This document shows, in pieces, positions 3,648-36,426 of a stretch of 45,929 bases of DNA. Numbering within the stretch: position 1 is the first letter of the stretch; every line of letters starts with the position of its first letter. The position numbers were made by a program, and so were the translations under genes. The DNA is from Patescibacteria group bacterium (GTDB taxonomy: Archaea; Nanobdellota; Nanobdellia; Pacearchaeales; GW2011-AR1), in the NCBI GenBank assembly GCA_051269935.1, contig JBNMFJ010000001.1:1-45929 (forward strand), read 5' to 3'. The notes beneath the pieces were generated by a model, which worked only from the letters and a program-made list of their open reading frames with translations, was not told where the DNA came from and did not search any database.

Positions 3648-3830
3648 TTACCAACCTGTTCGTTTGAACTTCTTCTCTAGATCTGCTTTTGTTAACAGTC
3701 AACTTTTCTTTTAAAAAAAGAAAGTTGGCAAAGAAAATATGTTTCTTCTAAAAAGTGGCAAAGCCATTTTTAGAAATAATTTTTACCAACCTGTTCGTTT
3801 GAACTTTTTCTCTAGATCTGCTTTTGTTAA
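3648..3830. repeat. 48-bp direct repeat (3648-3695 and 3783-3830, 1 mismatch) of the mutL 3' end, flanking an 87-bp hairpin-containing insert (3696-3782)
   Basis: TTACCAACCTGTTCGTTTGAACTT[C/T]TTCTCTAGATCTGCTTTTGTTAA occurs twice. The second copy is the genuine mutL end (reverse strand ...LTKADLEKKFKRTGW*). Confidence 0.9.
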
Positions 3831-9929: not shown

Positions 9930-9945
9930 ATTAAGTTGTGGTTAC

Positions 9946-10112
9946 AGTATCTCCGCTGTTTATACATAAACATCGGAGCACTGGGATATTCTTTGGAAAG
10001 AAAAAATATTTTTGCGTTTTCTGCCCCACATGTCATACCAACTAGGCATAAACCAGAAAACGCCTATCTTTCATACTTAACTTAGAAGTAGCATAAACTC
10101 AGCGGAGATACT
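9946..10112 (+). mobile_element. MITE-like element copy 1 (167 bp) with 13-bp perfect terminal inverted repeats AGTATCTCCGCTG / CAGCGGAGATACT
   Basis: About 95 percent identical to 27443-27610. Flanked by GGTTAC / GGTTAT, a possible 5-6 bp target duplication. Intergenic. Confidence 0.7.
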
Positions 10113-10125
10113 CGGTTATCCGTTA

Positions 10126-10356
10126 CTATAATATATTTTTGATTGTTTGATAATATATATTTAATCTTGATATTTCGATTATTGCGGCTGTTGAATATAC
10201 TAGGTATTTTGCGGTGTATTTTGCCATTGTATATTGTATTTTATTTGTTGTATTTTGAGGTTCTATTCTTCCTTCCAAATCTATTTTTCTTGCGAACTTG
10301 ATAACTGACCCTGGTGTTGCTATTGTTTTGATGATATTTCTGGTTGAATCTTCCAT
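10126..10356 (-). CDS. hypothetical small protein (76 aa), doubtful
   Basis: ORF track only; no motif. Confidence 0.3.
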   Translation of the reverse strand: MEDSTRNIIKTIATPGSVIKFARKIDLEGRIEPQNTTNKIQYTMAKYTAKYLVYSTAAIIEISRLNIYYQTIKNIL

Positions 10357-10390
10357 ACTTCTTTATAATTAGGTGAACTAATAAAGAAGT
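10357..10390. promoter_or_regulatory. perfect 10-bp-stem hairpin ACTTCTTTAT-N14-ATAAAGAAGT upstream of the Ubl/E1/JAB operon
   Basis: Read directly. Followed by TGCC, resembling the GAAAGTTGGC end of the hairpin-core inserts. Confidence 0.4.
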
Positions 10391-10457
10391 TGCCTATTAT
10401 TGAAACTGTTTCATTTATGAGGACCTGATTAAAGTATCTTATTTTTATCAATTTAAT

Positions 10458-10712
10458 ATGGGAATAGTAAAAAAACTAACAACTGGATTTGTTGTGTATA
10501 CTGCGGCGGTGTTCGGAGCGGGATATGCTCTGCGTGGTTGCTCTTCGATTGATATTAACTCTAGGATTGATTCATTGCAGGAGAATTATATCCATGATGA
10601 TTATACTGATCCATTTACTTTGAAGACAAAGGCTTTGAGAGATTATGAAGCTTCTTCAGATAGGTTACGAGATAATTATGAAAAGTTTAAGGGAGGGCCT
10701 GTAGATGAGTGA
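10458..10712 (+). CDS. small N-terminally anchored protein (84 aa), lipobox-like LRGC; first gene of the operon
   Basis: Hydrophobic N-terminus FVVYTAAVFGAGYALRGCSS followed by a charged helical tail. Overlaps the next gene by 8 nt. Confidence 0.55.
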   Translation: MGIVKKLTTGFVVYTAAVFGAGYALRGCSSIDINSRIDSLQENYIHDDYTDPFTLKTKALRDYEASSDRLRDNYEKFKGGPVDE

Positions 10713-11802
10713 TGATTTATCTTATGAAGGGTCTATTGATTTAGATAAAAGGATTTCTGATTTGGGATATGAATTAGCTCCTAAAGATACATATGATGTT
10801 GGGGCTCGGAAATCTCCTGATTCTTTTTTGGATAGTTTGAGGCGTTCTAGAAGTGGTGATGGTATTGCACGGGGGCGTTCTGCTCGAAAGTATGGGATGA
10901 ATGATATTAGTAGTATGGTTGAGGAAATTAGCTATAATAATAGGACCATTGAACATGCTGTAAGGCGTGAAGTCCTTGGTACTAAAAATGATTGGAAAAG
11001 TAAGGTTTCTTATGCGTTAACTCATTTTGGGTCTAAATCTGATATGCCTGTTGAAAATATTTTTGAGGAACAAATTGGAAGAGTTCGTTCTGTTGATGAT
11101 ATGCTTTCTTCGTATAATGCTCAGTTAGATCAGCGAATTGATAGATTGCAGAAAAGACATCAAATTTTAGTTGGAGCAGCTGTTGAGAAATATGAGAATA
11201 ACTCTGTATTAAAAACGGGATTGCAAGAGAAGAAGTCTTTGCTTGACGATTTATCTCAAAGTGTTGATGCTTTGGGTAATGATGATTTGGCTATGGCTGA
11301 GAGAATGAAGTATATGGGAATTATGAGAGAATTACGTCGAGACATTTCTCATGGTGTTCATAATGTTAATCGGAATGGAAATTACTTGACTTTGTTACGA
11401 AGAGAGATGCCTATTATTGAGAGTTTAAGTCAGGTTTCTGATGCGTATTCTTTTAGTATGAAGGAAATTAGTGATAATACTGAAATTTTGACAACTCATT
11501 TACAGAGTGTTGTTCCTTTATACTTAGATGTATTACGAAGTGAAGCAGGAGTCGGAAGGCTTCAGGGTGAGGTTCAAAAATTGTTTGGGTATACTTCTAA
11601 TTTAAGTGGGGCAGTTCAGGCGGGTAAGCAACGAATTGTTACTGGTGGTGAAGAGCATGGGCTTGTTCATTTAGAATTTGATCGAATTGAACGGGATTTG
11701 GATGGAGCACTTACTGATGTTGAGGAAGCTACTTTTGGACAGTTAGATAGATTAGAGAATCAATTGTATACTAAGCATACTGATGAAAGGAGGTTGAAAT
11801 AA
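10705..11802 (+). CDS. hypothetical helical/coiled-coil protein (365 aa), operon member
   Basis: ORF track; GGAGGG 7 nt upstream inside the preceding gene. No motif recognised. Confidence 0.65.
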   Translation: MSDDLSYEGSIDLDKRISDLGYELAPKDTYDVGARKSPDSFLDSLRRSRSGDGIARGRSARKYGMNDISSMVEEISYNNRTIEHAVRREVLGTKNDWKSKVSYALTHFGSKSDMPVENIFEEQIGRVRSVDDMLSSYNAQLDQRIDRLQKRHQILVGAAVEKYENNSVLKTGLQEKKSLLDDLSQSVDALGNDDLAMAERMKYMGIMRELRRDISHGVHNVNRNGNYLTLLRREMPIIESLSQVSDAYSFSMKEISDNTEILTTHLQSVVPLYLDVLRSEAGVGRLQGEVQKLFGYTSNLSGAVQAGKQRIVTGGEEHGLVHLEFDRIERDLDGALTDVEEATFGQLDRLENQLYTKHTDERRLK

Positions 11803-11804
11803 AC

Positions 11805-12215
11805 ATGGATTATGATAAACCAATAGTGCGATTACGAAATAATGAGAATGCTAATGGAGGTTTAATGTATAATTTATCTCAGGATCTTGTAGATGGTTCC
11901 TTGAATAATTTAATTGAGTATTCATCGTGTCAAGAAAATTTTAGAGCTCTTGAACCAACAGAGAATTCTGTTGTTAATTATATTAATTCTTCACTTTCTC
12001 GAGGAGTCCCTTATAATATTAGAGCCTTTGAATCACCAGATCGTCTTTCTCCATCTATTAATTTAAGTGATCGTTTAAGTGTAGTTACTCAAAAATATAT
12101 GAGACCCAGTTCTATTCTAAATGATGCTGGAGAAGAAATTAGATTTAATGAGTTGGATTTAGTATTTACTTCCCAAGAAGTGGGTGGATTGTATTTACCA
12201 AATTATTTGTCTTAA
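11805..12215 (+). CDS. candidate ubiquitin-like modifier precursor (136 aa) ending ...LDLVFTSQEVGG-LYLPNYLS
   Basis: Small protein immediately upstream of the E2-like, E1-like and JAB genes. Di-glycine (12183-12188) is followed by an 8-residue tail, and the preceding hydrophobic-alternating strand resembles the ubiquitin ...LHLVLRLRGG end. The fold is not verifiable by eye. Confidence 0.45.
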   Translation: MDYDKPIVRLRNNENANGGLMYNLSQDLVDGSLNNLIEYSSCQENFRALEPTENSVVNYINSSLSRGVPYNIRAFESPDRLSPSINLSDRLSVVTQKYMRPSSILNDAGEEIRFNELDLVFTSQEVGGLYLPNYLS

Positions 12216-12223
12216 TGACATAG

Positions 12224-13669
12224 GTGTTATTTCGTTTTATTATGGCAGATCTTGCGACAAAGAGTAGAGTAGATTATTCGAGGCATACAGATTCTAATCC
12301 TAGAAGTGTTAAAAACATGGATCGTGAATATAAGAGAAATATTCAGATTTTAATGGAATCTCAATCTTTGTCGCAAGACTATTCTTTTGATGAGGTAGCT
12401 TTTACTCCATCATCCTGCGCGTTTGAATCTTTATTACAGAATAGATTTTGTCTTTTTGGACCTCAACATTCTTATGTTTTGTCAAAGGGAAAAAATGAAG
12501 GAGAGAAAATTCCAGTTCTCTATCATGGGACTAGATATTATTTTCAACCATCTCATTCTTATTCTGAGATTGAATCTACCTTAATGGATTCGATGTCTTC
12601 TGATATATCTATGTATAGGGGGAAATGTGTAGATACGTTAAAGAATAAATCTTCTAGTGTTAATGATTTAGTGAATACATATTCAGATAGACTATCTGGG
12701 AAATTTAGTGATATGGAGAATGTGTGTAATTCTTTGTTGTTAATGAATTATGATCAATTTGAAAATGGTATGAATGCTGAACAAAAAAAGATTGTTGCTT
12801 CAATTGCAAAACAATCTGACTTGATTAATTCTCTTTCTTTTGAGTCACAATTTTCTTCTCCTAATATATTGGAGAAATACATCTCATCACATTTACCTAA
12901 TTCTGATGACTTATTGTTGCGTATTGATAATGATTTTTATACCATTTTTTCAGGAAATGAGGTTATTGATTTAAATTCCCTTGCATTTGAGAAAACATTT
13001 ACATATGAAGATTTGCATTCTCATTATTTAAAGGAATTTTCCCGTCTTGTTCACTCAGAGGTCGCTGATTCTTTGAATGATGTTGTTGTAAAACTAGGGG
13101 ATATGGAAAAATCATTTAGCACACTCGATTCATTATCTCGTGAAGCTACGGTAGCGAATAAAAAGTTAGGAGCCTTTGGTTATGAATTACAAAGTGAATC
13201 ATCTGCTTGTATGTTTAAGGATATTGACTCTTATATTATTAAGAAAAAAGGGGATCATTATCTTTTTCCAAAGGCAAGAATTGGAACACAAATTAGAAAA
13301 AATAATGATGGGTCTGCCGCTATCGTTGAGACGCCTCCATATGTAATAGGTCATTATCCACATTCTTTTATGAGAAAAGAATCTTCTGGTAAAAGTTATT
13401 TTTGCTTTGGCGATATAAACTTTGCAAATATTTGTTCTCAAACATATCAACCTTTAGATAGTTCTCATTTTCCTGTATTACATAATGATGCAGTTCTTTC
13501 GATTGGAACGCTAGAAAATGTTTTGAAGTTTGGGTTTCGCGCGGATTATCATCCTCATCGATATCTTAATCCACAAAATTTTGCTACCAATCATATTTCA
13601 CTATCTCGAGTGAATGAATTGTCAACTAAGGGAATTGAAATTTGTGATAATGATAGGAGGGATACATAA
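12224..13669 (+). CDS. large protein (481 aa) with candidate UBC/E2-like C-terminal domain
   Basis: C-terminal segment ETPPYVIGHYPHSFMRKESSGKSYFCFGDINF resembles the UBC core PP-x-V...HPN...G-x-x-C. Candidate catalytic Cys is TGC at 13403-13405. GTG start at 12224, alternative ATG at 12242. N-terminal ~350 aa unknown. Confidence 0.5.
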   Translation: MLFRFIMADLATKSRVDYSRHTDSNPRSVKNMDREYKRNIQILMESQSLSQDYSFDEVAFTPSSCAFESLLQNRFCLFGPQHSYVLSKGKNEGEKIPVLYHGTRYYFQPSHSYSEIESTLMDSMSSDISMYRGKCVDTLKNKSSSVNDLVNTYSDRLSGKFSDMENVCNSLLLMNYDQFENGMNAEQKKIVASIAKQSDLINSLSFESQFSSPNILEKYISSHLPNSDDLLLRIDNDFYTIFSGNEVIDLNSLAFEKTFTYEDLHSHYLKEFSRLVHSEVADSLNDVVVKLGDMEKSFSTLDSLSREATVANKKLGAFGYELQSESSACMFKDIDSYIIKKKGDHYLFPKARIGTQIRKNNDGSAAIVETPPYVIGHYPHSFMRKESSGKSYFCFGDINFANICSQTYQPLDSSHFPVLHNDAVLSIGTLENVLKFGFRADYHPHRYLNPQNFATNHISLSRVNELSTKGIEICDNDRRDT

Positions 13670-15030
13670 TGACTCATATTGAATCTCAGCATGATCGGCA
13701 AAATAGAATTACCGGTTTTGATCAGAATGCAATTTCAAATACTAAAGTGTGTATTTTGGGAAATAATCTTGCTTCTCAATTGGTTCTTGCTAGTAGTGTT
13801 GCTATGGGCTTTGGAGATATCACTCTATTGGATAATCAAAAATCAGCTAAGGGTGATATTGATATATTTTATCCTTCATGGCCGTTTGTTGGACATGATA
13901 GATCACAGACTATTGCTTATAATGCAGGCAAGATAGATGAGAATATTAGCGTAAAAGGATATTCTAGTTTGTTTAATCCACACGATATTGGTGTGATGTA
14001 TGAGAAGCCTGATGTGATTATTGACTTGACTCAAGATAAAAATTTGAAGGAAGAATCTTTAGTATATGCAAGTAGAGAGGGCATATCCTATGTTAGTGGT
14101 TTTATTAATCATTCCCAAGGGCAAGTTTCTGTATATGATTCTAAACGACAAAACTATAATGATATTTTATTGCCTAAGGGAGATTTTGATTCTATTACTG
14201 ATCCGGGTATTATTCCTTCTGGTGTTTCTTCAGGAATTATTATGGATGAGATTCGTAAAAATTTATTTAGATATAATGATTTTGATTTGCCTTTAACTGA
14301 TCCCTTTGTATATAATCTTTTATCTTCATCTCGAAGTTCCCCTGATAATGATGTAGAATTTATTAAAAGTCGATTGGATGAACGAATATTGGTAGCTGGT
14401 GCTGGGGCTATTGGTACTTATGTTGCTCTTGGATTAGCTTATTCTTGTTTTAATAATTTTGATATTCTTGATTGTGATGATGCTGAGAAAACGAATTTGA
14501 ATCGGCAAATTTTGTATTATGATTCTTTGGGTGAACATAAGGCTAAGGCGTTAAGTACAAAACTTGAAGAGTTGACTACTGTAAAACCAAAATTTCATGA
14601 TATGAGAATAGATGAGAATTCTCTTGATTTTATTAGGGATCAAGGGTATACCACTTTATTTGGATGTTTCGATAATATGAATGCACGATTCTATCTCAAT
14701 GATATTGCTAAAGAATTAGGAATTAATTATATTGATGGCGGGAGTAGTCCTCATGGTGGTAAGGTTGTTAATTATATTACTGAAACATATTCATGTGTTG
14801 GTTGTACTAAAAATTTGACATTGGAGGATAAGAGTTATGGTTGTGCGAGAGAGCCAGACGCAAGTATTATTAACTCTAATATGCTTGTAGGAAGTACTAT
14901 GGTTGGAGAACTTTATCATAATAATGGAGAATCCTCTGTTCCGTCTTTATCTTATTCTCAACAGGAAGAGCCAAGGATTAAAGTAAATTTTGAGGTATCT
15001 CCACAAGAAAATTGTGGATGTAAGATATAA
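13669..15030 (+). CDS. E1-like (ThiF/MoeB/UBA superfamily) adenylating enzyme with tandem degenerate + active Rossmann domains
   Basis: C-terminal half: ILVAGAGAIGTYVALGL (GxGxxG, 14398-14415), DILDCDDAEKTNLNRQ (NLNRQ at 14494-14508), FDNMNARFYLN, IDGGSS, CVGC ... CGC. N-terminal half has the same layout but degenerate motifs (KVCILGNNLASQ, LLDNQKSAKGD). TAATG overlap with the upstream gene. Confidence 0.85.
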   Translation: MTHIESQHDRQNRITGFDQNAISNTKVCILGNNLASQLVLASSVAMGFGDITLLDNQKSAKGDIDIFYPSWPFVGHDRSQTIAYNAGKIDENISVKGYSSLFNPHDIGVMYEKPDVIIDLTQDKNLKEESLVYASREGISYVSGFINHSQGQVSVYDSKRQNYNDILLPKGDFDSITDPGIIPSGVSSGIIMDEIRKNLFRYNDFDLPLTDPFVYNLLSSSRSSPDNDVEFIKSRLDERILVAGAGAIGTYVALGLAYSCFNNFDILDCDDAEKTNLNRQILYYDSLGEHKAKALSTKLEELTTVKPKFHDMRIDENSLDFIRDQGYTTLFGCFDNMNARFYLNDIAKELGINYIDGGSSPHGGKVVNYITETYSCVGCTKNLTLEDKSYGCAREPDASIINSNMLVGSTMVGELYHNNGESSVPSLSYSQQEEPRIKVNFEVSPQENCGCKI

Positions 15031-16727
15031 TGGGATTTTTTAATTTTTTTACGGATAAACAGGAATCAGTTTCTACTCCTAATTTTAGTTATTCTTCATC
15101 TTATTTAACTGAGGATGCGCGTAATTTTACTTTTATGGGGACTCGTCCTTATAGTTTGGAAGAGTGTTTACGTCAAAGAGAGACTGTTTTTCCTGATCAT
15201 GTAGTGAGAAAAATTGCTGCTGAGTTTTCTATGACTGATAGAATGCTTTATTTTGAGGGAAAAAATCATGTAATAGATTCTAAAAAATCTCGACATGCAG
15301 TTGTTACTTCAGGAATTAATTCGATATTGGATTCAGATGATAGATACCAGGAATCTGAACGAGAAGCTGATCGTGTCTATAAGTCTAGGATTACATCTTT
15401 ATTACATTCTAGCCATAAGGCTGGTGTTGAAGACTATATATCTAAAAATGTAGAAGCGGTACCTCAGTTACATTCCATTAAGATCACTCAAGAAGCAATG
15501 GATAAGGCGAATTTGATTGCCAAGAGGATGGTTAATGCATCGAAGACTCCTGATGAAATTTATTTTCATATGCTTAGTGGAAAAGATGATACCGATTTTG
15601 TGATTAGAGATATTTATATTCCTCGTCAGGCTGTAACACCATCATTGTGTTCTACTGACCATCAATATTATGGTATGGATGATTTTGAAATAGAGAAGTC
15701 AGGTTATAAAAATATTGCATGGGGACATTCTCATGGACATCATGATGTCTTTTTTTCAGGAACTGATCATACTAATATTAATGCTAATAATGATTTGTAT
15801 CCATCATTTACATTACCTTTTGATTCGTATTCGGGTAAAAATATTAATGTTCATGCTATGCCTTGTTTGGTTTTTAATGCTCTGAATGCCTCTCCTGCTA
15901 AAAGAATTGGAGTTGCCTATACATCTTTATTTGGAGATCTATTTGAACGATATGATAATAAAACTCCCAATCTTGATATTATTTCTGAGTCTAATGGTAT
16001 TGATATGACTATTGATTCTATAGATAAAATGATTTATAATAGAGTTACTACACCTCGTGGTTTTAAGAATAGTTTTGAGGAAAATATGTTTGAGAAGTAT
16101 GGCGAGATAATCCGAGGAGATTCTGGTGCTTATTCTGAAAAAGTTCGAATACAAAGGGAAAATGATGTAGAATACAAGGCCAATCTTTCTCGATTGTTTG
16201 GACAGAAAGTTGTGAATCGTGTAGTACCTCTATCTGAATCGGAAACTCCTGCAGAAGATATAACTCCTGCTCCAACTCAGAATGAATTTGGTGTTGATAC
16301 TTTTTTCTCTTCTAATTATATAGTCAATAATTCTGGGTATCGACATTCAGTAGATTCTAACGGGAATATTGATCTTTCTGATGTTGATATGGGATCTGAT
16401 AAGGTTCAAGTGCGTGGATATTCATATGATAATTTAGAAACCTTTTCGGTTGATACGAATAATGATCCTTATATGCAAAATCGATTTATGGGTTATGATG
16501 CTCCGTTTATTCATGATATAGATTTTGAAAATATGGCTACTGAGGGGACTTCTGAAACAAATGCTATTGATGATTACTTTGTCTCGCGTTCTGAATATAA
16601 TGCTTTACAGGATAGGCATGATGTATTGCGGGAAGAGGTTGATGGGTTAGGTGATCGATTGGGCTCTTTGAAAAAGAGTGTGAAATATCTTGGAGGGTTG
16701 TATAATAAATGGAGAGACAAAGATTAG
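15030..16727 (+). CDS. JAB/MPN+ (JAMM) metallopeptidase domain protein with long N- and C-terminal extensions (565 aa)
   Basis: Exact JAMM signature AWGHSHGHHDVFFSGTD, i.e. H-S-H-x7-S-x-x-D (15726-15767), with an upstream Glu candidate in PDEIYFHML. TAATG overlap with the E1 gene. Confidence 0.85.
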   Translation: MGFFNFFTDKQESVSTPNFSYSSSYLTEDARNFTFMGTRPYSLEECLRQRETVFPDHVVRKIAAEFSMTDRMLYFEGKNHVIDSKKSRHAVVTSGINSILDSDDRYQESEREADRVYKSRITSLLHSSHKAGVEDYISKNVEAVPQLHSIKITQEAMDKANLIAKRMVNASKTPDEIYFHMLSGKDDTDFVIRDIYIPRQAVTPSLCSTDHQYYGMDDFEIEKSGYKNIAWGHSHGHHDVFFSGTDHTNINANNDLYPSFTLPFDSYSGKNINVHAMPCLVFNALNASPAKRIGVAYTSLFGDLFERYDNKTPNLDIISESNGIDMTIDSIDKMIYNRVTTPRGFKNSFEENMFEKYGEIIRGDSGAYSEKVRIQRENDVEYKANLSRLFGQKVVNRVVPLSESETPAEDITPAPTQNEFGVDTFFSSNYIVNNSGYRHSVDSNGNIDLSDVDMGSDKVQVRGYSYDNLETFSVDTNNDPYMQNRFMGYDAPFIHDIDFENMATEGTSETNAIDDYFVSRSEYNALQDRHDVLREEVDGLGDRLGSLKKSVKYLGGLYNKWRDKD

Positions 16728-18106
16728 TTTCTTTAGAATCTGCTGTTGATGGACATTTGTTTAAAGAAGTTGTTTTAGGGGGTGAGTTTGAATCTGAATA
16801 TGCAAGTATGACATCTGAGAATTATGGGTTGAGTGATCTAATGGCTTATTCTTATTTGCAGTCTCATGTCTCACGGGCAAAGTCGTTAAGAGATGAGTCT
16901 GAGTCGGGACCATATAAAGTGGATTTTTCGGATCCTTATGGGACAGCTAAAGAAGTATTATCTCTGTTTGATACTGGAGTTGCTCTTTTGTCTCCTGTCT
17001 CAAGCGCTATGCAGAATATGGCTGTGTCTTCTGCTCAGGAATATATTTCACAGGAAATGCTGTTAGCTATAGATGAGCCCAGTAAAACTTTGGATGATTG
17101 TTGTGTATATGCTCTGATTGATTATTTTTATAGATCTTTGAAACCAGAGAGGCAGGATCATTTCTTGAGAACAGCAAATGGGAGAAATTTAGTTGATAAT
17201 TTGCAGAGGGTTTCTCTTCATCATGTGTATATGTCAGGGGTTAAGGAGTTTGCCAAGAAGAATATAGAATTGGCTGGTTATATTGCTGAATTAAGTAATG
17301 AATCTTATAAGTTTACTTCTAACGAGATTTCTCGGAATTCTTTGTTGGAGACTGAGAATTTGCAAGCTGTTCCAGCTGATATTGATATGTGGTTTAGTGC
17401 CGTGATGTCTGATAGAATTTCTTTGAGGGATGAGTTTCTTTCTAAGCGACATTCTCTATTATCTAATAAGATTGCTAAATATGATGATGATTTTGCTTTG
17501 TATTCTAAGAATTATGATATTGTTTCCCGGAGGGATTTGCCGACTGCAAAGGACATTACTATTTTATCTAGTAATAGTAAGGGTTTAGATGAGGAGGTTA
17601 CATTTTATTCGACATTAGGTGGTTATGATGATAAAATTAGTTCAAGGGCCAAATTACAACAAGGTATTACTTCTCGTTTAACTCAATATGAAATATATAA
17701 GAATAATATTGGGCGTGTTGTTAATTTTGAGAAACTATTAGATGTGAATATTGAGAAAAAAATGTTAGACTCAAAGAATCCTCTTGGTGCTCTTGGTAGT
17801 ATGATTGCTAATGTGAAACAGGAAAGATCTAATCTTTCATCTTTGCGTGTGAATCCTTATTTGAAGGCGGTAATATCTCCATTGGATGAGGCAACATTGA
17901 AATATTATCGAACTAGTGCTCAGGTTGTTGCTGATTTAGCTGTTGCTGTTTCTCAAAAATTTAATGAGGTAACAAATAAATATGAATCATTGCCATTTTA
18001 TAAAAAGCCATTTGGTTATTTTGCATATGATACTCAAAGTAATGAATTGATATCCTCTTTAGAAAGACTTGAAGATTTCTCAGATAAGATTCCCAAGAGC
18101 TTGTAG
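16709..18106 (+). CDS. hypothetical helical protein (465 aa), last tightly coupled operon member
   Basis: 19-nt overlap with the JAB gene; GGAGGG 11 nt upstream. No motif recognised. Confidence 0.65.
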   Translation: MERQRLVSLESAVDGHLFKEVVLGGEFESEYASMTSENYGLSDLMAYSYLQSHVSRAKSLRDESESGPYKVDFSDPYGTAKEVLSLFDTGVALLSPVSSAMQNMAVSSAQEYISQEMLLAIDEPSKTLDDCCVYALIDYFYRSLKPERQDHFLRTANGRNLVDNLQRVSLHHVYMSGVKEFAKKNIELAGYIAELSNESYKFTSNEISRNSLLETENLQAVPADIDMWFSAVMSDRISLRDEFLSKRHSLLSNKIAKYDDDFALYSKNYDIVSRRDLPTAKDITILSSNSKGLDEEVTFYSTLGGYDDKISSRAKLQQGITSRLTQYEIYKNNIGRVVNFEKLLDVNIEKKMLDSKNPLGALGSMIANVKQERSNLSSLRVNPYLKAVISPLDEATLKYYRTSAQVVADLAVAVSQKFNEVTNKYESLPFYKKPFGYFAYDTQSNELISSLERLEDFSDKIPKSL

Positions 18107-18140: not shown

Positions 18141-18422
18141 ATGTTTGATAAATTAGAAAAATCATTAGAGGAAAAGGTTGTTAGTTGGAAGGTTGTTTCA
18201 AAAAATGAAATATATAGAAAGAGTGAAAATGGGAAAAGTACTTATAGAATTTGTTTGCAAAGTGAAGATATCCATATAGATGGAATGATTCGTTATAAGA
18301 AGGTTGATGAAGAGACTTATTCTATAACAAAAGTTCTCTCAATAGTAAATTATACAATGTATTCTAATAATAAAACATCTTGGTTTTTTGATGAAAAAAT
18401 GGCAAGAAAAAATAAAAAATAA
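18141..18422 (+). CDS. hypothetical small protein (93 aa)
   Basis: ORF track, same strand, 35 nt downstream of the operon. No motif. Confidence 0.4.
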   Translation: MFDKLEKSLEEKVVSWKVVSKNEIYRKSENGKSTYRICLQSEDIHIDGMIRYKKVDEETYSITKVLSIVNYTMYSNNKTSWFFDEKMARKNKK

Positions 18423-18446: not shown

Positions 18447-18707
18447 TTAATATTTAGGGTTCTTGGAAGCTTTGAAAGTGAATGCCTTTCGTGCAGATAT
18501 TCTAATCTTAGCACCAGTTGCAGGGTTTACACCATTTCGTGCCTTTTTCTTTACTTCTTTAAAAGTTCCGAATCCGACTAATTGTACGGGTGCTTTCTTA
18601 GCGTTTTTATATACAGTCTTTAAAACTGATTCTAAAACTTCACCAGCTTTTGCCTTAGTTAGGCCTGTGTCTTTTACGACAGCTTCGATTAATTGAGCTT
18701 TATTCAT
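18447..18707 (-). CDS. HU/IHF-family (bacterial-type) DNA-binding protein
   Basis: MNKAQLIEAVV...GFGTFKEVKKKARNGVNPATGAKIRISARKAFTFKAS. Typical HU length (86 aa), with the arm motif R-x-G-x-NP-x-TG. Confidence 0.9.
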   Translation of the reverse strand: MNKAQLIEAVVKDTGLTKAKAGEVLESVLKTVYKNAKKAPVQLVGFGTFKEVKKKARNGVNPATGAKIRISARKAFTFKASKNPKY

Positions 18708-19525: not shown

Positions 19526-21112
19526 TTATTTGTTGAATAATGATTTCTTTCGTAATAATCTGTTGTAGGTTATTGCGAATCTGTGGGCTTCGTCTCTAAT
19601 TTGCTGAAGTAAAAGTCTTCCTTTGTTCTTGTCTGAGAGTCGGATTGCTTCTGAACTTCCTGGTACAAATATTTCCTCGAATTGTTTAGCGAGGCTGATT
19701 ATTGGAATTTTTAGGTTAAGTGAGTCCAGAGCTTTGAGGGCTGCGTTGAGTTGGCCGATTCCTCCGTCAATGATTATGAGGTTTGGGAGTGATAGATTTT
19801 CATTTTTAAGTTTGGTATATCTTCTTTTTACGACTTCTTCCATTGATGCGAAGTCGTCGTTTTGGAATACTGTTTTCATCTTGAATCTTCTATAATTGCT
19901 TTTATCGGGTTTTCCGTTTCTGAATTGAACCATTGATGCGACTATGTGAGTTCCTGATAGGTGAGAGATGTCGAAACATTCCATTACGATTGGAAGCTCT
20001 TGGAGGTTTAATCTGTTTTGTAATATTTCTAGTTTTTCTGTTTCAGCAAAGAATGCTATTTCAATGTTCTTTTCAACAAGATCTAATAGGGCCTTTTTTT
20101 CTCCTATTTTGGGAACTATTGTTTCGACTTTTGTTTTGTATTTATGGGTTAGATATTTTGCAATTATCGGACTTACTTGTTTTGGGATAATTATGTATTT
20201 TGCTTGTTTGTCTTTTGGTATTGTTGTTTCTGAATAGTATTGGGCTAGGAAGTCTTCTAAAAAGTTTTCCCTTTCTTCGAATATAAACTCTTGTTTGTTC
20301 TCGAGGGTTCCTCTGTAGATGTTAAATATGAGGAGGTATACCTTTCCTTTTTTGACAATGTAGTTAATTATGTCTTCGTTATATTTTTTGTCTCGTATTA
20401 CGTTTTGTTGTTCGTTGAGATAATCTAAGGAGTTGATTTGGCTTCTATATTGTAGGGCTCTTTCGAAGTCTTGTTTTTTTGATGCTTTTTGCATTTTTTC
20501 TTTTAGCATCTTTATTACATCTGCACTTTTCCCTTTGAGGACTTTTTTGGCGGAATTTACATCTTCATTATAATCTTCTTCTGATATGGCTTTAATGCAT
20601 GGTGCACTGCAGAGATTGATGGCATGTCTGAGGCAGGCTTTCTTGGGCAGTTTTCTACATGTTCGGAGTTTGAAAGCTTTATTGATTACTTGGAGGATAT
20701 CATCTCGTGCTCGTGCTGAGGTGAATGGTCCGAATCTGTATGTGTTTTTTGTGTGTAATCTTGAGATTAGGAATCGTGGGTATTTTTCTTTTGTGAGGTC
20801 TATATATGCATAGGATTTTGAATCTCTTAGGCTGATGTTATATTTTGGTTTATGTTTTTTGATTAATGTGTTTTCGAGCATAAGGGCTTCTATCTCATTT
20901 TTGGTTATCATGAAGTCGACGGATTTTATGTGTCTTACTAAGACTTTTGTTTTTTCGTCATGATCATTTTTGGTGAAGTAGGAAGTTACTCGCTTTTTGA
21001 GGTTTTTGGCTTTTCCTACATAGATTATATTTCCTGAAGAATCTTTGTAGAGGTAGCAGCCTGGCTCTGTTGATACGGTGGTTAGGTCGATTGGGTGGGT
21101 TTTGGCTGCTAT
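19526..21112 (-). CDS. uvrC: excinuclease ABC subunit C (UvrC). GIY-YIG domain lies upstream of the ORF-track ATG, and the start codon is not canonical.
   Basis: ORF track part carries the UvrC core and C-terminal (HhH)2-like end. The same frame stays open to 21124 and encodes EPGCYLYKDSSGNIIYVGKAKNLKKRVTSYF (GIY-YIG). No ATG/GTG/TTG between 20912 and the in-frame stop at 21125-21127, so the 5' end is set provisionally at ATA 21110-21112. Confidence 0.8.
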   Translation of the reverse strand: MAAKTHPIDLTTVSTEPGCYLYKDSSGNIIYVGKAKNLKKRVTSYFTKNDHDEKTKVLVRHIKSVDFMITKNEIEALMLENTLIKKHKPKYNISLRDSKSYAYIDLTKEKYPRFLISRLHTKNTYRFGPFTSARARDDILQVINKAFKLRTCRKLPKKACLRHAINLCSAPCIKAISEEDYNEDVNSAKKVLKGKSADVIKMLKEKMQKASKKQDFERALQYRSQINSLDYLNEQQNVIRDKKYNEDIINYIVKKGKVYLLIFNIYRGTLENKQEFIFEERENFLEDFLAQYYSETTIPKDKQAKYIIIPKQVSPIIAKYLTHKYKTKVETIVPKIGEKKALLDLVEKNIEIAFFAETEKLEILQNRLNLQELPIVMECFDISHLSGTHIVASMVQFRNGKPDKSNYRRFKMKTVFQNDDFASMEEVVKRRYTKLKNENLSLPNLIIIDGGIGQLNAALKALDSLNLKIPIISLAKQFEEIFVPGSSEAIRLSDKNKGRLLLQQIRDEAHRFAITYNRLLRKKSLFNK

Positions 21113-21186: not shown

Positions 21187-22140
21187 TTATTGTTGCATAA
21201 AATTGTTAGGAAGATATTGTTTTTTATGAACTTTCTCGCTTTTGAACGTCATATAACTTTGGATAGAGAAGTGGGCTCTTATCTCTTTGATTAATTCTAT
21301 TTCTTTGAGATCTTCTATTTTAATCATAACTTGAGATGAACCAATAAGTTTAGTCATTTCTATTATGTTTTTTTGCTCCTTTGCATATTCTATAAATGAT
21401 TCAATTTCTTCAAGTCCACTACTTGAGAATCTCAGAAATACTATATTCCTTCGAATTCCCAATTTATTATGATTAAAAATGGCACCATAACCTTTAATTA
21501 TAAATTTTTTTTCTAAATCCTTAATTATTCTTGTAATGCTCTTTCTATTTATTCCTGTTGTTTCTTCTATCTCATAAGTTTTTTTTACTGGGTCTTTGAT
21601 CAACTCACTAATTATTTTTGATTCATTCTCAGAAATCTTCTTTAAAATTCTATCCCCGGATAATATCTTAGTTTTTATTATTTTCTCCTTTTTTAAATAT
21701 TTTCTAGGAAACTTATATGTTGTTATGATTGGGAAAATAAATACTGTGTTTAGTTGTTCTTTGAATTCATTTAATATTTGCATATGAATTTTGTCTAATC
21801 CAGCTAATGTTTTTGTGCAGAATTCAATAAGTAGGTCAAAACCTTCAGAAGATTCCTCTATTGCGATTACTTCAGGTATACTATCTAGATGACTTAGAAC
21901 TCTCTTTTTTAGGCTTATACTTAATTTGTTATAATTAAACCCAATTATAGTGTTTATGTATCCTAACTTAACCGCGTCAATTATTACAGTTTCCTTTTCA
22001 ATCATTCCCTTTTCCTTTAAAGTGCTTATTAGGTATGAGGCTGATTGCTGTGATGAATATATTCTTTTCCCTAATTCTTTTGTGGTTATTCGGGCATTAC
22101 TAGTATACTCGAATATTAATTTTTTTAACTTTTCTTTCAT
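21187..22140 (-). CDS. transcriptional regulator with two Lrp/AsnC-type winged-HTH modules
   Basis: ARITTKELGKRIYSSQQSASYLISTLKEKGMI and KTYEIEETTGINRKSITRIIKDLEKKFII, each followed by ...KLGY/KLG as in AsnC-type HTH. Divergent from the racemase operon. Confidence 0.55.
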   Translation of the reverse strand: MKEKLKKLIFEYTSNARITTKELGKRIYSSQQSASYLISTLKEKGMIEKETVIIDAVKLGYINTIIGFNYNKLSISLKKRVLSHLDSIPEVIAIEESSEGFDLLIEFCTKTLAGLDKIHMQILNEFKEQLNTVFIFPIITTYKFPRKYLKKEKIIKTKILSGDRILKKISENESKIISELIKDPVKKTYEIEETTGINRKSITRIIKDLEKKFIIKGYGAIFNHNKLGIRRNIVFLRFSSSGLEEIESFIEYAKEQKNIIEMTKLIGSSQVMIKIEDLKEIELIKEIRAHFSIQSYMTFKSEKVHKKQYLPNNFMQQ

Positions 22141-22266: not shown

Positions 22267-23055
22267 ATGGTACTAGGAATAGTTGGAGGCGTTGGCCCGG
22301 AAGCAACGAATAAGTTCTGTGAAATGATAATTAAGAAGAAAAAAAAGTCATGTGATCAAGATAATATTCCATTTATTCACTTTTGTAATCCTAAGATCCC
22401 GGATAGAACTGAATATATAATGGGAAAGGGAGAAGATCCAGTACCGGAGATTGTTAAAACATGCCATTTGCTGGAATCGATGAATGTGAAGATGTTAGTC
22501 ATTCCTTGTAATACTGCTCATGTTTTCTTTGATAGGATTCAATCTCAAGTATCTACTCCTATTGTAAACATGGTTGATTTACTGATTAAGGAAATAAGAG
22601 GAAAACAACCTCCGATTACAAAAGTTGGAGTTCTGGCTACTTCTGGAAGTATTCATTCAAACCTATTCCGTAACTATTTGTCCAAATCTGGAATTGAAGC
22701 AGTTTATCCTTCTTCTGAAGATCAAGAATCTTTGGTAATGGAAGCAATATATGGTAAGAATGGTATTAAGGCTGGGAAAAAGAGGCTCCCTCAAAAACTA
22801 TTATCTGAGGCGGTTAATAATTTAATTAGTCAAGGTGCCGAAGCAATTATCTTAGGATGTACTGAATTACCGTTAGTTTTGAGAACAAGCCATTTCCCTA
22901 TACCACTATATGATTCAATGGATATAACTGCAAAGAGAATAGTTGAATATTTGGATATTGCTCAAGAAATGATTGAGGAAGAGGCGGAAACTGTTTTTCA
23001 TCAAAATTTTAAGTATGATTATTTCCCAACTAAAATTATTGAGGAAAAAATATGA
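22267..23055 (+). CDS. aspartate/glutamate-type amino-acid racemase
   Basis: GIVGGVGPEAT, IPCNTAH and LGCTELP (the two catalytic Cys motifs of the Asp/Glu/hydantoin racemase family). Confidence 0.8.
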   Translation: MVLGIVGGVGPEATNKFCEMIIKKKKKSCDQDNIPFIHFCNPKIPDRTEYIMGKGEDPVPEIVKTCHLLESMNVKMLVIPCNTAHVFFDRIQSQVSTPIVNMVDLLIKEIRGKQPPITKVGVLATSGSIHSNLFRNYLSKSGIEAVYPSSEDQESLVMEAIYGKNGIKAGKKRLPQKLLSEAVNNLISQGAEAIILGCTELPLVLRTSHFPIPLYDSMDITAKRIVEYLDIAQEMIEEEAETVFHQNFKYDYFPTKIIEEKI

Positions 23056-36216: not shown

Positions 36217-36241
36217 GGCCACTCGACTAATCTTTTTTTAT

Positions 36242-36416
36242 GCTCTCATAGTCTAGTGGCCAAGGATGCCGCCCTCTCAAGCTGAAGGGATAATCGATGA
36301 GATGAAGCCTTTGCATTCAGAATGAATACGGCAATCTTCGCGACGTGAGGTGATAAAATCTTTCGCGGATTTTGCGGAGAACGGCGGTGACCCGGGTTCA
36401 AATCCCGGTGGGAGCG
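36242..36416 (+). tRNA. tRNA-Glu (anticodon CUC) with a 102-nt intron (36280-36381) at the canonical 37/38 position
   Basis: Exons GCTCTCATAGTCTAGTGGCCAAGGATGCCGCCCTCTCA and CGGCGGTGACCCGGGTTCAAATCCCGGTGGGAGCG fold into a cloverleaf nearly identical to the tRNA at 8545. TCTC (36275-36278) can pair with GAGA (36377-36380) as the central helix of a relaxed bulge-helix-bulge. Confidence 0.85.
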
Positions 36417-36426
36417 TATTTATTTT

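What the first reader, a model, noticed from the sequence alone, without database searches (positions are those of the whole stretch)
10458..18106. Eight-gene translationally coupled operon: candidate Ubl, E2-like, tandem E1-like, JAMM peptidase plus four unknown proteins in an archaeal-looking genome
Seen: eight same-strand ORFs with overlaps or gaps of 8 nt or less. Junctions are an 8-nt overlap at 10705, TAATG overlaps at 13669 and 15030, and a 19-nt overlap at 16709; GGAGG-like sites sit inside the preceding genes. 13669..15030 has a canonical E1/ThiF adenylation core. 15030..16727 has an exact JAMM motif H-S-H-x7-S-x-x-D. 12224..13669 ends in a UBC-like PP-x-V...H-P-H...C segment. 11805..12215 ends ...EVGG plus 8 residues. 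Established: co-operonic Ubl + E2 + E1 + JAB genes define prokaryotic ubiquitin-like conjugation systems (Bil antiphage operons, CBASS Cap2/Cap3, 6E-type operons, the Caldiarchaeum-type Ub operon). Inference: this is a protein-conjugation system. It stands out in three ways. The genomic context looks archaeal (intron-containing tRNA, TrmB, Lrp). The E2-like (481 aa) and JAB (565 aa) proteins are unusually large. Four co-transcribed partners (lipobox-like 84-aa protein, 365-aa and 465-aa helical proteins, ~350-aa N-terminal region of the E2-like protein) have no motif I can place; they are candidates for membrane tether, adaptor/E3-like specificity factor, substrate or effector. No RING, HECT or cyclase gene is present, so it does not fit the architectures I know.
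Basis: partly seen in the sequence, partly recalled or inferred. Interest (0 to 1): 0.9.

Follow-up and report, generated by a model that had tools for sequence, protein, structure and literature searches.

The report
Divergent ubiquitin-like tagging operon, DPANN archaea
This is a seven-gene operon, recurring in tiny symbiotic (DPANN) archaea, that combines a ubiquitin-type activating enzyme and an Rpn11-like protease with a Gly-Gly-ended small protein and a Cys-bearing partner that match no known family, so it is most likely a new, very diverged protein-tagging system.

Summary
The operon is real, but it has seven ORFs (10458-18106), not eight; every stated junction and motif checks out. Two parts are firmly identified. 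One is a single-chain tandem E1 (inactive plus active adenylation domain, conserved crossover-loop Cys392). The other is an Rpn11-like JAMM peptidase with a complete catalytic motif.

Across 49 non-identical loci, nearly all DPANN archaea or unlabelled metagenome contigs, this E1 travels with the JAMM protein and two further partners. One is a 120-160-aa protein ending ...GG plus 0-10 residues. The other is a 310-630-aa protein with a conserved Y-x-H-P-F...[IL]-C signature (Cys 45/46).

A ubiquitin-like conjugation module is therefore well supported by context. However, neither the GG-protein (β-grasp?) nor the Cys-protein (UBC fold?) could be confirmed by AlphaFold/Foldseek, HMM or profile-profile tests. 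They represent new families or extreme divergence.

Accessory genes vary. The lipobox protein, g2 and g7 occur only in close relatives. Other lineages carry ClpX-like or PAN-like AAA+ unfoldases instead.

The window is archaeal (TATA boxes at -27, intron-containing tRNA) despite its "Patescibacteria" label.

Verdict: new variant of a known kind; interesting; function unproven.

The parts
10458..10712 (+). g1: 84-aa small protein with an N-terminal hydrophobic segment and a lipobox-like G-Y-x-L-x-G-C, followed by a polar or coiled tail. It is the first gene of the operon.
   Evidence: One search gives the sequence. Positional counterparts with the same MG..hydrophobic..GYxxGGC design occur in L001 (70 aa) and L037 (69 aa). 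BLAST finds no similarity. The lipoprotein status is inferred.
10705..11802 (+). g2: 365-aa helical or coiled-coil protein of unknown function, always directly upstream of the GG-protein in the closest relatives.
   Evidence: Orthologues occur in L001 (E = 2e-27), L035 (1.7e-42) and L037. There are no Pfam, PADLOC, NCBIfam or PHROG hits, and the PDB profile search finds only coiled-coil noise.
11805..12215 (+). g3: 136-aa candidate modifier precursor. Gly127-Gly128 are encoded at 12183-12188, followed by the 8-residue tail LYLPNYLS (12189-12212).
   Evidence: The family of about 26 proteins lies next to the E2-like genes and shares aromatic-x-x-φ-[DE]-φ...GG plus a 0-10-residue tail. The AF2 model has pLDDT 67.7 with strand/helix order β-β-α-β-β-β in residues 70-121. 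Foldseek, PDB, Pfam and hhalign give no match to ubiquitin-like proteins.
12224..13669 (+). g4: 481-aa E2-like candidate carrier or ligase. The conserved Y378-P-H380-S-F382 is encoded at 13355-13369 and Cys394 at 13403-13405. The ~330-aa N-terminal region is unassigned.
   Evidence: Over 46 family members the signature is Cys 45/46, Pro 45/46, His 41/46 and Phe 38/46. The gene is adjacent to the E1 in 17 of 18 well-flanked loci. Only 14 representatives exist in 1.84e9 proteins. Foldseek, PDB, Pfam and hhalign against UQ_con (80, 112) find no UBC match.
13669..15030 (+). g5: 453-aa tandem E1.
- Inactive adenylation domain: residues 1-225 (13669-14343).
- Active adenylation domain: residues 226-453.
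- GxGxxG: 14398-14415.
- Zn cysteines: C376, C379, C449, C451.
- Crossover-loop Cys392: 14842-14844.
   Evidence: - Pfam ThiF scores 1.5e-36 in two stretches.
- Invariant catalytic residues are listed.
- The N-terminal half matches MoeB at 1.7e-16 but lacks GxGxxG and NLxRQ.
- The best PDB hits for the active domain are SAE2, Uba1 and UBA3, then MoeB.
- The loop between CxxC and the P-S-I helix is about 15 aa, where UBA3 has an ~80-aa Cys domain.
15030..16727 (+). g6: 565-aa Rpn11-like JAMM/MPN+ metallopeptidase. Glu176 is encoded at 15555-15557 and H233-S-H...S243..D246 at 15726-15767. It has a long C-terminal extension ending in a coiled coil.
   Evidence: E176, H233, S234, H235, S243 and D246 are invariant across 13 family members. 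The best PDB profile hit is the Caldiarchaeum Rpn11-like protein 6fjv (8e-9), followed by eukaryotic Rpn11 and BRCC36. Pfam Prok-JAB is only a weak hit.
16709..18106 (+). g7: 465-aa helical protein of unknown function, overlapping the JAB stop by 19 nt. It is the last gene of the operon.
   Evidence: L001 (461 aa) and L037 (447 aa) have mutually homologous proteins at this position (2e-26), but these are not detectably similar to window g7. g7 is absent from L033 and L035. No family hits.

Best explanation
The operon encodes a four-part ubiquitin-like protein-conjugation module (g3-g6), with lineage-specific accessory proteins (g1, g2, g7), in a DPANN-type archaeon.

Proposed cycle:
1. The Rpn11-like JAMM peptidase (g6) trims the 8-residue tail of the 136-aa precursor (g3) and exposes Gly-Gly.
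2. The single-chain pseudo-dimeric E1 (g5) adenylates that C-terminus in its active C-terminal domain, then takes it as a thioester on the crossover-loop Cys392.
3. The tag passes to Cys394 of the 481-aa protein (g4). Its Y-x-H-P-F...I-C site plays the part of an E2 active site. Its large N-terminal region probably selects targets, because no E3 is encoded.
4. The tag is then joined to target proteins, and the JAMM enzyme can remove it again.

Status of each step:
- Shown: identity and intact catalytic motifs of the E1 and the JAMM peptidase.
- Shown: conservation of the GG terminus and of the His/Cys signature.
- Shown: strict co-occurrence of the four genes.
- Inferred: processing, thioester transfer, the E2 role of g4, and conjugation itself.

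Likely biological role (weaker inference): marking proteins for AAA+ unfoldases or proteolysis, or a Bil-like conflict function. Sister operons carry ClpX-like or PAN-like ATPases. In this clade the small lipobox protein g1 may tether the system near the membrane.
For: E1:
- ThiF scores 1.5e-36 with all catalytic residues invariant.
- The N-terminal half is a degenerate ThiF/MoeB domain, so the enzyme is a tandem IAD-AAD, an architecture otherwise known from eukaryotic E1s and Bil BilD (PMC10557695 read).
- Cys392 is conserved in the ~15-aa crossover loop.

JAMM peptidase:
- The E...HSH...S..D motif is complete and invariant.
- The nearest structures are the Caldiarchaeum Rpn11-like protein and eukaryotic Rpn11.

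GG-protein:
- The C-terminal ...GG plus a 0-10-residue tail is conserved in the gene directly upstream of the E2-like gene across lineages.
- This mirrors the Bil Ubl, which has a conserved Gly plus up to 9 residues that are cleaved by the JAB.

E2-like protein:
- Cys 45/46, His 41/46, Pro 45/46, with His-to-Cys spacing of 10-14 residues.
- The model places this site after a β-meander and before a long helix.

Co-occurrence:
- 49 non-identical loci were found. Of 18 with enough flank, the E2-like protein is in 17, JAB in 16 and both in 15.
- The genes are translationally coupled.

Unfoldase link:
- A ClpX-like AAA+ lies inside 12 related operons.
- A PAN-like ATPase lies directly upstream of the GG-protein in 3.
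- Cdc48 lies next to L001.

No sulfurtransferase or cofactor-biosynthesis genes occur in these neighbourhoods.
Against: - The GG-protein was not recovered as a β-grasp. The model is of moderate confidence, and Foldseek, PDB-HMM, per-member Pfam scans and hhalign against real archaeal ubiquitin are all negative.
- The Cys-protein was not recovered as a UBC fold by Foldseek (PDB, BFVD), PDB-HMM, Pfam, or hhalign against real UQ_con E2s.
- In the window itself the conserved Pro of H-P-F is Ser.
- The E1 has no ubiquitin-fold domain for E2 docking and no Cys domain.
- By sequence the E1 scores almost as well against MoeB as against SAE2 (113 against 118 bits), and it forms its own clade.
- There is no experimental evidence, and no target is identifiable.
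Confidence: 0.62

Rival explanations
1. E2-independent tagging. The E1 alone activates and conjugates the GG-protein, as in archaeal sampylation by UbaA. The 481-aa His/Cys protein is not a carrier but the main substrate, an adaptor, or another enzyme such as a cysteine peptidase or transpeptidase acting on the tag.
For: No UBC fold was detected for g4 by any method. The E1 lacks a UFD and has a ThiF/MoeB/UbaA-type short Cys loop. NCBIfam shows partial similarity to SAMP-activating E1 (3.4e-17). It is established (my knowledge) that Haloferax sampylation needs only the E1 UbaA.
Against: The near-invariant Cys with an upstream His-Pro-Phe at E2-like spacing is hard to explain for a mere substrate. 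g4 is the most faithful partner of the E1 (17 of 18 loci). SAMP systems use single-domain homodimeric E1s and ThiS/MoaD-type Pfam-recognisable β-grasp proteins, neither of which is seen here.
Confidence: 0.17
2. Same chemistry, but the biological role is antiviral or anti-MGE defence like Bil. The tag would be conjugated to virus structural proteins, and the variable accessory genes would be sensors or effectors.
For: The four-part architecture parallels Type II Bil (IAD-AAD E1, diverged E2, JAB, Ubl with Gly plus tail). Distribution is sporadic and rare (14 E2-like representatives in 1.84e9 proteins). Accessory genes turn over rapidly. L001 is flanked by an IS element and an MmeI-type RM gene.
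Against: No PADLOC model matches beyond the generic E1 nucleotide loop. The window's own neighbours are housekeeping or repair genes (MutL, UvrA, UvrC, HU, racemase). No relatives occur on viral contigs. Association with ClpX- or PAN-type unfoldases points at least equally to proteostasis.
Confidence: 0.3
3. Sulfur-carrier or cofactor/tRNA-thiolation system. The GG-protein would be a ThiS/MoaD/Urm1-like thiocarboxylate carrier activated by a MoeB/ThiF-type enzyme.
For: The best NCBIfam hits of the active domain are ThiF and MoeB models, though far below their cut-offs. MoeB scores 1.6e-31 in PDB. The E1 has the ThiF-type tetracysteine Zn site and loop Cys.
Against: - The tandem IAD-AAD architecture is unknown in sulfur-carrier E1s.
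- A JAMM peptidase and a precursor tail are obligate partners.
- No rhodanese, sulfurtransferase, thiamine, Moco or tRNA-thiolation genes occur in 49 neighbourhoods. L004 has a separate classical ThiS-ThiF-PP-loop set elsewhere on its contig.
- The E1 is not nested among sulfur-type E1s.
Confidence: 0.04
4. Peptide or RiPP maturation. A MccB/PaaA-like E1 would modify the C-terminus of a precursor for a secreted product, with the JAB acting as leader or tail peptidase and g1 as a membrane component.
For: The E1 profile hits MccB at 2.8e-26 and PaaA at 8e-17. The precursor has a cleavable tail, and a small membrane-anchored protein is present.
Against: The precursor is a 120-160-aa folded-looking protein, not a short peptide. 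No exporter or immunity genes are present. The conserved terminal residue is Gly-Gly, not Asn. The AAA+ unfoldase association does not fit.
Confidence: 0.02

Closest known systems
Type II Bil (BilABCD; '6C/CEHH') bacterial ubiquitination-like antiphage operons (Chambers et al., PMC10557695)
   Same: Both have four parts: a Ubl precursor with a conserved C-terminal Gly followed by up to about 9-10 residues, a highly diverged E2, a JAB/JAMM peptidase, and a single-chain E1 with an inactive N-terminal and an active C-terminal adenylation domain. Neither encodes an E3. Accessory content is variable.
   Different: - The E1 here lacks the ~80-aa mobile CYS domain; its Cys sits in a ~15-aa loop.
- The E2-like protein has a His-before-Cys Y-x-H-P-F...C signature, not CEHH. 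It is 310-630 aa with a large N-terminal region.
- The JAB is Rpn11-like and 260-950 aa long.
- The Ubl is not recognisable as a β-grasp.
- The hosts are DPANN archaea, not Rhizobiaceae.
- PADLOC hits only the generic nucleotide-binding loop of CBASS E1-E2 (Cap2) models, and NCBIfam gives no family-level hit; neither lists a Bil model.
Caldiarchaeum-type archaeal 'eukaryote-like' ubiquitin operon (Ub, E1, UBC E2, small RING E3, Rpn11; Nunoura 2011 PMC3082918; Fuchs 2018 PMC6043591). It is also seen here in the Bathyarchaeia loci L019-L029.
   Same: Archaeal host. An Rpn11-like JAMM is the closest structural relative of g6 (6fjv). The modifier is made as a GG-plus-tail precursor. E1, carrier, peptidase and modifier are encoded in one operon.
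   Different: Those operons have Pfam-recognisable ubiquitin (PF00240) and UQ_con E2, and usually a RING protein. Their E1 has one adenylation domain, with an N-terminal Ubl domain in L019. Here ubiquitin, UQ_con and RING are all undetectable and the E1 is tandem.
Eukaryotic canonical E1s (Uba1; SAE1/SAE2; NAE1/UBA3)
   Same: The pseudo-dimer of an inactive and an active adenylation domain is shared. The active domain's best PDB matches are SAE2, Uba1 and UBA3. The Zn CxxC and CxC positions align with UBA3.
   Different: There is no catalytic-Cys domain, no ubiquitin-fold domain and no FCCH/SCCH insertions. The whole enzyme is 453 aa. The family is a separate clade in a simple NJ tree, so the tandem arrangement may be an independent duplication.
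Archaeal SAMP/UbaA sampylation and bacterial ThiS-ThiF / MoaD-MoeB sulfur carriers
   Same: A ThiF-fold adenylating enzyme with a tetracysteine Zn site and a crossover-loop Cys. The partner is a small protein with a C-terminal Gly-Gly. A JAMM protease (HvJAMM1) is used in sampylation.
   Different: Those E1s are single-domain homodimers, their carriers are Pfam-recognisable β-grasp proteins without long tails, no E2-like partner exists, and sulfur-transfer genes accompany them. None of this holds here.
Bub ('6E/DUF6527') and CBASS Cap2/Cap3 systems
   Same: Prokaryotic E1 plus E2-like plus peptidase conjugation logic.
   Different: Bub uses Ubl-E2 or E2-E1 fusions, oxyester (Ser/Tyr) chemistry and a DUF6527 serine protease (PMC11601596). 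CBASS uses an E1-E2 fusion that conjugates a CD-NTase. Neither the fusions, DUF6527 nor a cyclase is present here, and similarity to BubCD and Cap2 is limited to the generic adenylation core (e-18 and e-15).

Membership tests
Type II Bil (6C/CEHH) operon | Single-chain E1 with N-terminal inactive and C-terminal active adenylation domains | tested here: met
   Two ThiF stretches. The N-terminal half matches MoeB at 1.7e-16 but lacks GxGxxG and the Arg finger.
Type II Bil (6C/CEHH) operon | ~80-aa α-helical CYS domain inserted in the E1 crossover loop, carrying the catalytic Cys | tested here: not met
   Only about 15 residues lie between CxxC and the P-S-I helix, containing Cys392. UBA3 has residues 199 to 281 at this point.
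Type II Bil (6C/CEHH) operon | E2 with the CEHH signature (Cys, then Glu, His, His) on a UBC-like fold | tested here: not met
   The family signature is Y-x-H-P-F-x(3-8)-[IL]-C, with His before Cys. The UBC fold was not recovered.
Type II Bil (6C/CEHH) operon | JAB/JAMM peptidase with an intact metal site | tested here: met
   E176, H233, H235, S243 and D246 are invariant. PDB profile hits to Rpn11-type MPN+.
Type II Bil (6C/CEHH) operon | Ubl with a β-grasp domain and a conserved C-terminal Gly followed by up to ~9 residues | tested here: inconclusive
   The GG-plus-tail feature is met. The β-grasp is not confirmed: pLDDT 67.7 and no Foldseek or profile match.
Type II Bil (6C/CEHH) operon | Antiphage activity or defence-island context | not testable with these tools
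   The window context is housekeeping. L001 lies near RM and IS genes. No assay is possible.
Caldiarchaeum-type archaeal ubiquitin operon | Ubiquitin-family (PF00240) modifier | tested here: not met
   0 of 26 GG-proteins hit PF00240. hhalign against ubiquitin from L019-L029 gives E = 0.16.
Caldiarchaeum-type archaeal ubiquitin operon | UQ_con (PF00179) E2 | tested here: not met
   0 of 35 E2-like proteins hit PF00179. hhalign against UQ_con from L017-L028 gives E = 0.68.
Caldiarchaeum-type archaeal ubiquitin operon | Small RING-finger E3 | tested here: not met
   No RING or treble-clef Pfam hit in any of the seven proteins, and no Cys/His-rich small ORF in the operon.
Caldiarchaeum-type archaeal ubiquitin operon | Rpn11-like JAMM peptidase | tested here: met
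   The best PDB hit is the Caldiarchaeum Rpn11-like protein 6fjv at 8e-9.
Sulfur-carrier E1 systems (ThiF/MoeB/UbaA) | Single-domain homodimeric E1, with the E1 clustering with MoeB/ThiF | tested here: not met
   The E1 is tandem. In the NJ tree the family is a separate clade, at distance ~0.8 from all other classes.
Sulfur-carrier E1 systems (ThiF/MoeB/UbaA) | ThiS/MoaD-type carrier and sulfurtransferase or biosynthesis genes in the neighbourhood | tested here: not met
   No ThiS or MoaD Pfam hits. No such recurrent neighbours.
Bub (6E/DUF6527) | DUF6527 serine protease; Ubl-E2 or E2-E1 fusions; E1 and E2 lacking a catalytic Cys | tested here: not met
   No DUF6527 hit. The genes are separate. 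Cys is conserved in both the E1 and the E2-like protein.
CBASS type II (Cap2/Cap3) | CD-NTase cyclase plus E1-E2 fusion | tested here: not met
   No cyclase. PADLOC E1-E2 models match only the nucleotide-binding loop, residues 237-303.
UBC-fold E2 superfamily (for g4) | HPN-type His and catalytic Cys about 10 residues apart, after a β-meander and before helix α2 | tested here: inconclusive
   The motif and spacing are met (H to C is 10-14 residues). The secondary-structure order is compatible. The 3D fold was not recovered by Foldseek.

The most novel reading that the evidence does not exclude
The GG-protein and the His/Cys protein are not diverged ubiquitin and UBC homologues. Instead they are unrelated folds recruited to an E1-JAMM core. 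This would be an independent invention of a modifier and a carrier/ligase in DPANN archaea, coupled in different lineages to ClpX-, PAN- or Cdc48-type unfoldases as a self-contained degradation-tag system. In that case the tandem E1 would be an archaeal example of the eukaryote-type pseudo-dimeric E1.
Probability: 0.15. Interest if true: 0.88.

Novelty: new variant of a known kind. Interest (0 to 1): 0.7.

Why it matters
Complete E1/E2/Ubl/DUB cascades outside eukaryotes are few: the Caldiarchaeum/Asgard type, Bil, Bub and CBASS. Each has changed how the origin of ubiquitin signalling is viewed.

This family adds three things:
- A tandem, pseudo-dimeric E1 in archaea, an architecture so far tied to eukaryotes and bacterial Bil.
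- An Rpn11-like peptidase.
- Two core partners that escape every current sequence and fold detector, so annotation pipelines and defence finders miss the system entirely.

It is restricted to genome-reduced DPANN symbionts and repeatedly linked to AAA+ unfoldases. This suggests a compact protein-tagging route that these organisms keep despite extreme gene loss. It gives a tractable four-protein set for biochemical reconstitution.

The analysis also flags a public MAG that is probably filed under the wrong domain.

Tried and rejected
- Pfam, PADLOC, NCBIfam and PHROGs scans of all operon proteins identified only the E1 and, weakly, the JAB.
- PDB HMM searches with GG-protein, E2-like, g2 and g7-like profiles found nothing meaningful.
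- Foldseek found no interpretable match for the GG-protein model (PDB) or the E2-like model (PDB and BFVD).
- hhalign of both families against genuine archaeal ubiquitin and UQ_con from neighbouring-clade operons was negative, with shallow and deeper alignments alike.
- Per-member permissive Pfam scans of 26 GG-proteins and 35 E2-like proteins gave no recurrent weak hits.
- The viral-contig scan for the E1 found none.
- The σ70 promoter and intrinsic-terminator scan was at chance level and is inappropriate for an archaeon.
- The idea that the JAB C-terminus (...YLGGLY...) is a second processing site was rejected as a family feature because it is not conserved.
- The idea that window g7 is an orthologue of the L001/L037 post-JAB protein is not supported statistically.
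- The PRTRC, 6A-MBL, Bub and CBASS assignments were rejected.
- A cluster look-up of housekeeping proteins for an alternative taxon label gave no new information.
- Literature searches for a DPANN or CPR ubiquitin-like system found none in the held library.

Full report
OBSERVATION.

The region 10458-18106 holds seven same-strand ORFs of 84, 365, 136, 481, 453, 565 and 465 aa, not eight. GGAGG-type sites lie 7-10 nt upstream of four internal starts.

The next ORF (18141-18422) follows a 34-nt gap and has a perfect TTTATATA at -29, so it is its own transcription unit.

The quoted motifs are all present:
- ...EVGG plus 8 residues on the 136-aa protein;
- Cys394 of the 481-aa protein at 13403-13405;
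- H-S-H-x7-S-x-x-D in the 565-aa protein;
- a full adenylation core in the 453-aa protein.

HOST.

The identical E1 is deposited as 'Patescibacteria group bacterium', and the window carries MutL, UvrA, UvrC and HU. Even so, several observations point to an archaeon:
- ARAGORN with introns allowed finds a tRNA-Glu(CTC) with a 102-nt intron in the anticodon arm, too short for a bacterial group I intron.
- Matches to the archaeal TATA consensus pile up 26-30 nt upstream of start codons and of both tRNA genes. This is the geometry of archaeal promoters with leaderless transcripts.
- Three TrmB/Lrp-type regulators are present.
- Every full-length relative of the E1 found in reference genomes is from DPANN archaea: Nanoarchaeia, Woesearchaeota and AR15.
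- Several related loci sit next to aIF2-gamma.

I conclude the window is from a DPANN-type archaeon and that the label is probably wrong.

FIRMLY IDENTIFIED PARTS.

(a) g5 is an E1.
- Pfam ThiF scores 1.5e-36 in two stretches.
- In a 24-member family alignment the GxGxxG, the Asp pair, the NL-R-Q Arg finger, Lys291 and Asp335 are invariant.
- The N-terminal 225 residues alone match MoeB and ThiF at about 1e-16 but have lost the glycine loop and Arg finger. The protein is therefore a single-chain inactive-plus-active pseudo-dimer. According to the papers read here, that arrangement is known from eukaryotic E1s and Bil BilD.
- A CxxC...CxC tetracysteine site is present.
- A nearly invariant Cys392 lies in the ~15-residue segment between CxxC and the P-S-I helix. 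At that point UBA3 carries its ~80-residue catalytic-Cys domain. So the E1 has a minimal Cys loop, no CYS domain and no UFD.
- The active half scores best against SAE2, Uba1 and UBA3 (about 118 bits), narrowly above MoeB (113), and far above BubCD and Cap2.
- In a simple NJ tree the family is its own clade, nested in neither sulfur-carrier nor ubiquitin-operon E1s.

(b) g6 is an MPN+/JAMM peptidase.
- Glu176, His233, His235, Ser243 and Asp246 are invariant in 13 relatives.
- The family profile's best solved relative is the Caldiarchaeum Rpn11-like protein (6fjv, 8e-9), then eukaryotic Rpn11 and BRCC36.

CONSERVED NEIGHBOURHOOD.

I gathered loci through the look-up of encoding contigs and through genome and metagenome scans. 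This gave 49 non-identical loci with this tandem E1.

In the 18 loci with enough flanking DNA:
- a homologue of g4 is present in 17;
- a JAMM homologue is present in 16;
- both are present in 15;
- a detectable g3 homologue is present in 13, and a further subclade has a divergent ~125-aa GG-protein.

Gene order varies (the JAB lies before or after the E1, and some loci have two JAB paralogues), but the four genes stay together.

No relative was found on viral contigs.

THE TWO DARK CORE PARTS.

The g3 family:
- Members align reliably only at the C-terminus, as aromatic-x-x-φ-[DE]-φ-φ-φ-x5-G-G followed by 0-10 residues. The tails are often Leu/aromatic-rich, as in GGLYLPNYLS, GGLYGLLR and GGLEGYLR.
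- This is the hallmark of a processed, C-terminally activated modifier. It parallels Bil Ubls, which have a conserved Gly followed by up to nine residues removed by the JAB.
- GG-less paralogues exist in some loci.

The g4 family:
- It has a near-invariant Cys (45/46) preceded by Y-x-H-P-F (His 41/46, Pro 45/46), 10-14 residues upstream, usually as [IL]-C-x-G.
- This has the same shape and spacing as the UBC active-site stretch Y-H-P-N-[IV]...[IV]-C. That comparison rests on my knowledge of E2s and on the UQ_con sequences.
- The family is tiny: 14 representatives at E <= 1e-3 among 1.84 billion proteins.

Every homology or fold test was negative or inconclusive:
- The AlphaFold model of g3 (8-sequence MSA) has pLDDT 67.7. 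Its strand/helix order in residues 70-121 is compatible with a β-grasp behind an N-terminal helical region, but Foldseek finds nothing (best E = 0.95).
- The model of g4 (14-sequence MSA) has pLDDT 74.7. It shows a β-meander, then the His/Cys loop, then a long helix. Foldseek finds no E2 in PDB or BFVD.
- PDB HMM searches and per-member Pfam scans are negative.
- Profile-profile comparisons are also negative. These used genuine archaeal ubiquitin and UQ_con E2 taken from the canonical Rpn11-Ub-E2-E1 operons of Bathyarchaeia, which turned up as the next E1 clade.

Context and motifs still make them the best functional reading.

ACCESSORY GENES.

- g2 has orthologues in L001, L035 and L037, always just upstream of the GG-protein.
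- g1's lipobox-like design (hydrophobic N-terminus, then G-Y-x-x-G-G-C) recurs in L001 and L037.
- A 447-461-aa protein follows the JAB in L001 and L037 and is conserved between them (2e-26). It is not detectably related to window g7.
- None of these proteins has any family or structural match.
- Elsewhere in the family these genes are replaced. Twelve loci carry a ClpX-like AAA+ (AAA_2 plus ClpB_D2-small) inside the operon. Three carry a PAN-like ATPase (proteasomal OB domain plus AAA) directly upstream of the GG-protein. L001 abuts a Cdc48 gene.
- This recurrent link to unfoldases is the only functional pointer found. It favours tagging for unfolding or degradation, but a Bil-like conflict role cannot be excluded.

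MECHANISM (committed reading, about 0.6).

1. The JAMM peptidase trims the tail to expose Gly-Gly.
2. The tandem E1 adenylates the C-terminus and forms a Cys392 thioester.
3. The tag is transferred to Cys394 of g4, whose large N-terminal region substitutes for an E3.
4. The tag is conjugated to targets, and the JAMM peptidase reverses this.

Shown: enzyme identities, intact catalytic residues, motif conservation and gene linkage. Inferred: every chemical step.

The main rival is E2-independent tagging, with g4 as substrate, adaptor or a different enzyme (about 0.17). Sulfur-carrier and RiPP readings are unlikely given the tandem E1, the obligate JAMM and the absence of sulfur or export genes.

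COMPARISON AND NOVELTY.

The system works like Type II Bil and like the Caldiarchaeum-type operon, but it fails defining features of each:
- Type II Bil: no CYS domain and no CEHH signature.
- Caldiarchaeum type: no PF00240, no UQ_con, no RING.
- Bub: no DUF6527 and no fusions.
- CBASS: no cyclase and no E1-E2 fusion.

No model in Pfam, NCBIfam or PADLOC recognises its modifier or carrier. No paper in the held library describes a DPANN or CPR system of this kind.

I rate it a new variant of a known kind. There is a modest chance (about 0.15) that its modifier and carrier are non-homologous inventions, which would make it considerably more novel.

Noticed in passing
window 36241-36417 (+): A second tRNA-Glu (anticodon CTC) carries a 102-nt intron after position 40. 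Default ARAGORN and Rfam missed it. The intron extends the anticodon stem in a BHB-like fashion.
   Followed up: partly
window-wide, e.g. upstream of 18141, 18862, 35586, 38781, 39826, 40637, of 3783-5612(-), 21187-22140(-) and 36427-37677(-), and of both tRNA genes: TTTAWATA-like boxes cluster 26-30 nt upstream of start codons and tRNA 5' ends. This is archaeal promoter geometry with leaderless transcripts. The public record is labelled 'Patescibacteria group bacterium', so the MAG is probably filed under the wrong domain.
   Followed up: partly
L019:7250-11005 (also L020-L029): Bathyarchaeia carry a canonical operon: Rpn11-like JAB (539 aa), ubiquitin (83 aa, ends IIGG plus 0-3), UQ_con E2 (197 aa) and an E1. 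That E1 has an N-terminal ubiquitin-family domain fused to ThiF (PF00240 7.6e-6, residues 8-63).
   Followed up: partly
L069:7679-16771: One metagenomic contig carries two complete tandem-E1 modules side by side (E1 at 9935-11338 and at 15377-16771), each with its own E2-like and JAB genes.
   Followed up: no
L001:4946-5377; L006:13021-13476; L003:441-860: Paralogues of the GG-protein that lack the terminal Gly-Gly sit in the same loci as the GG-bearing copy. They may be non-conjugatable decoys or regulators.
   Followed up: no
window 16680-16724 compared with 12177-12212: The JAB protein's C-terminus (...KYLGGLYNKWRDKD) resembles the modifier's predicted cleavage site (...EVGGLYLPNYLS). The resemblance is not conserved in other JAB family members, so it is probably chance. 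Self-processing in this lineage is not excluded.
   Followed up: partly
L043:2896-4419, L044:4711-6213, L045:5496-7007; L004:12218-13732 and 11 other loci: PAN-like (proteasomal OB plus AAA) and ClpX-like (AAA_2 plus ClpB_D2-small) ATPases are embedded in or abut sister operons. The window's own operon has none.
   Followed up: partly
window 22267-26724 (+): A cluster of Asp/Glu racemase, RimK-type ATP-grasp ligase, two unknown ~310-330-aa ORFs and an LD-carboxypeptidase. These are peptide or murein-like metabolism genes, unusual for an archaeon. A RimK gene also lies just upstream of the related operon in L003.
   Followed up: no
window 27952-29772 (+): A 606-aa protein with an ice-binding-like domain (PF11999, 2.1e-27).
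   Followed up: no
window 18447-18707 (-), 3783-5612 (-), 19526-20911 (-), 30402-33209 (-): Bacterial-type HU, MutL, UvrC and UvrA genes sit in what otherwise looks like an archaeal genome, presumably as horizontally acquired repair and chromatin genes.
   Followed up: no
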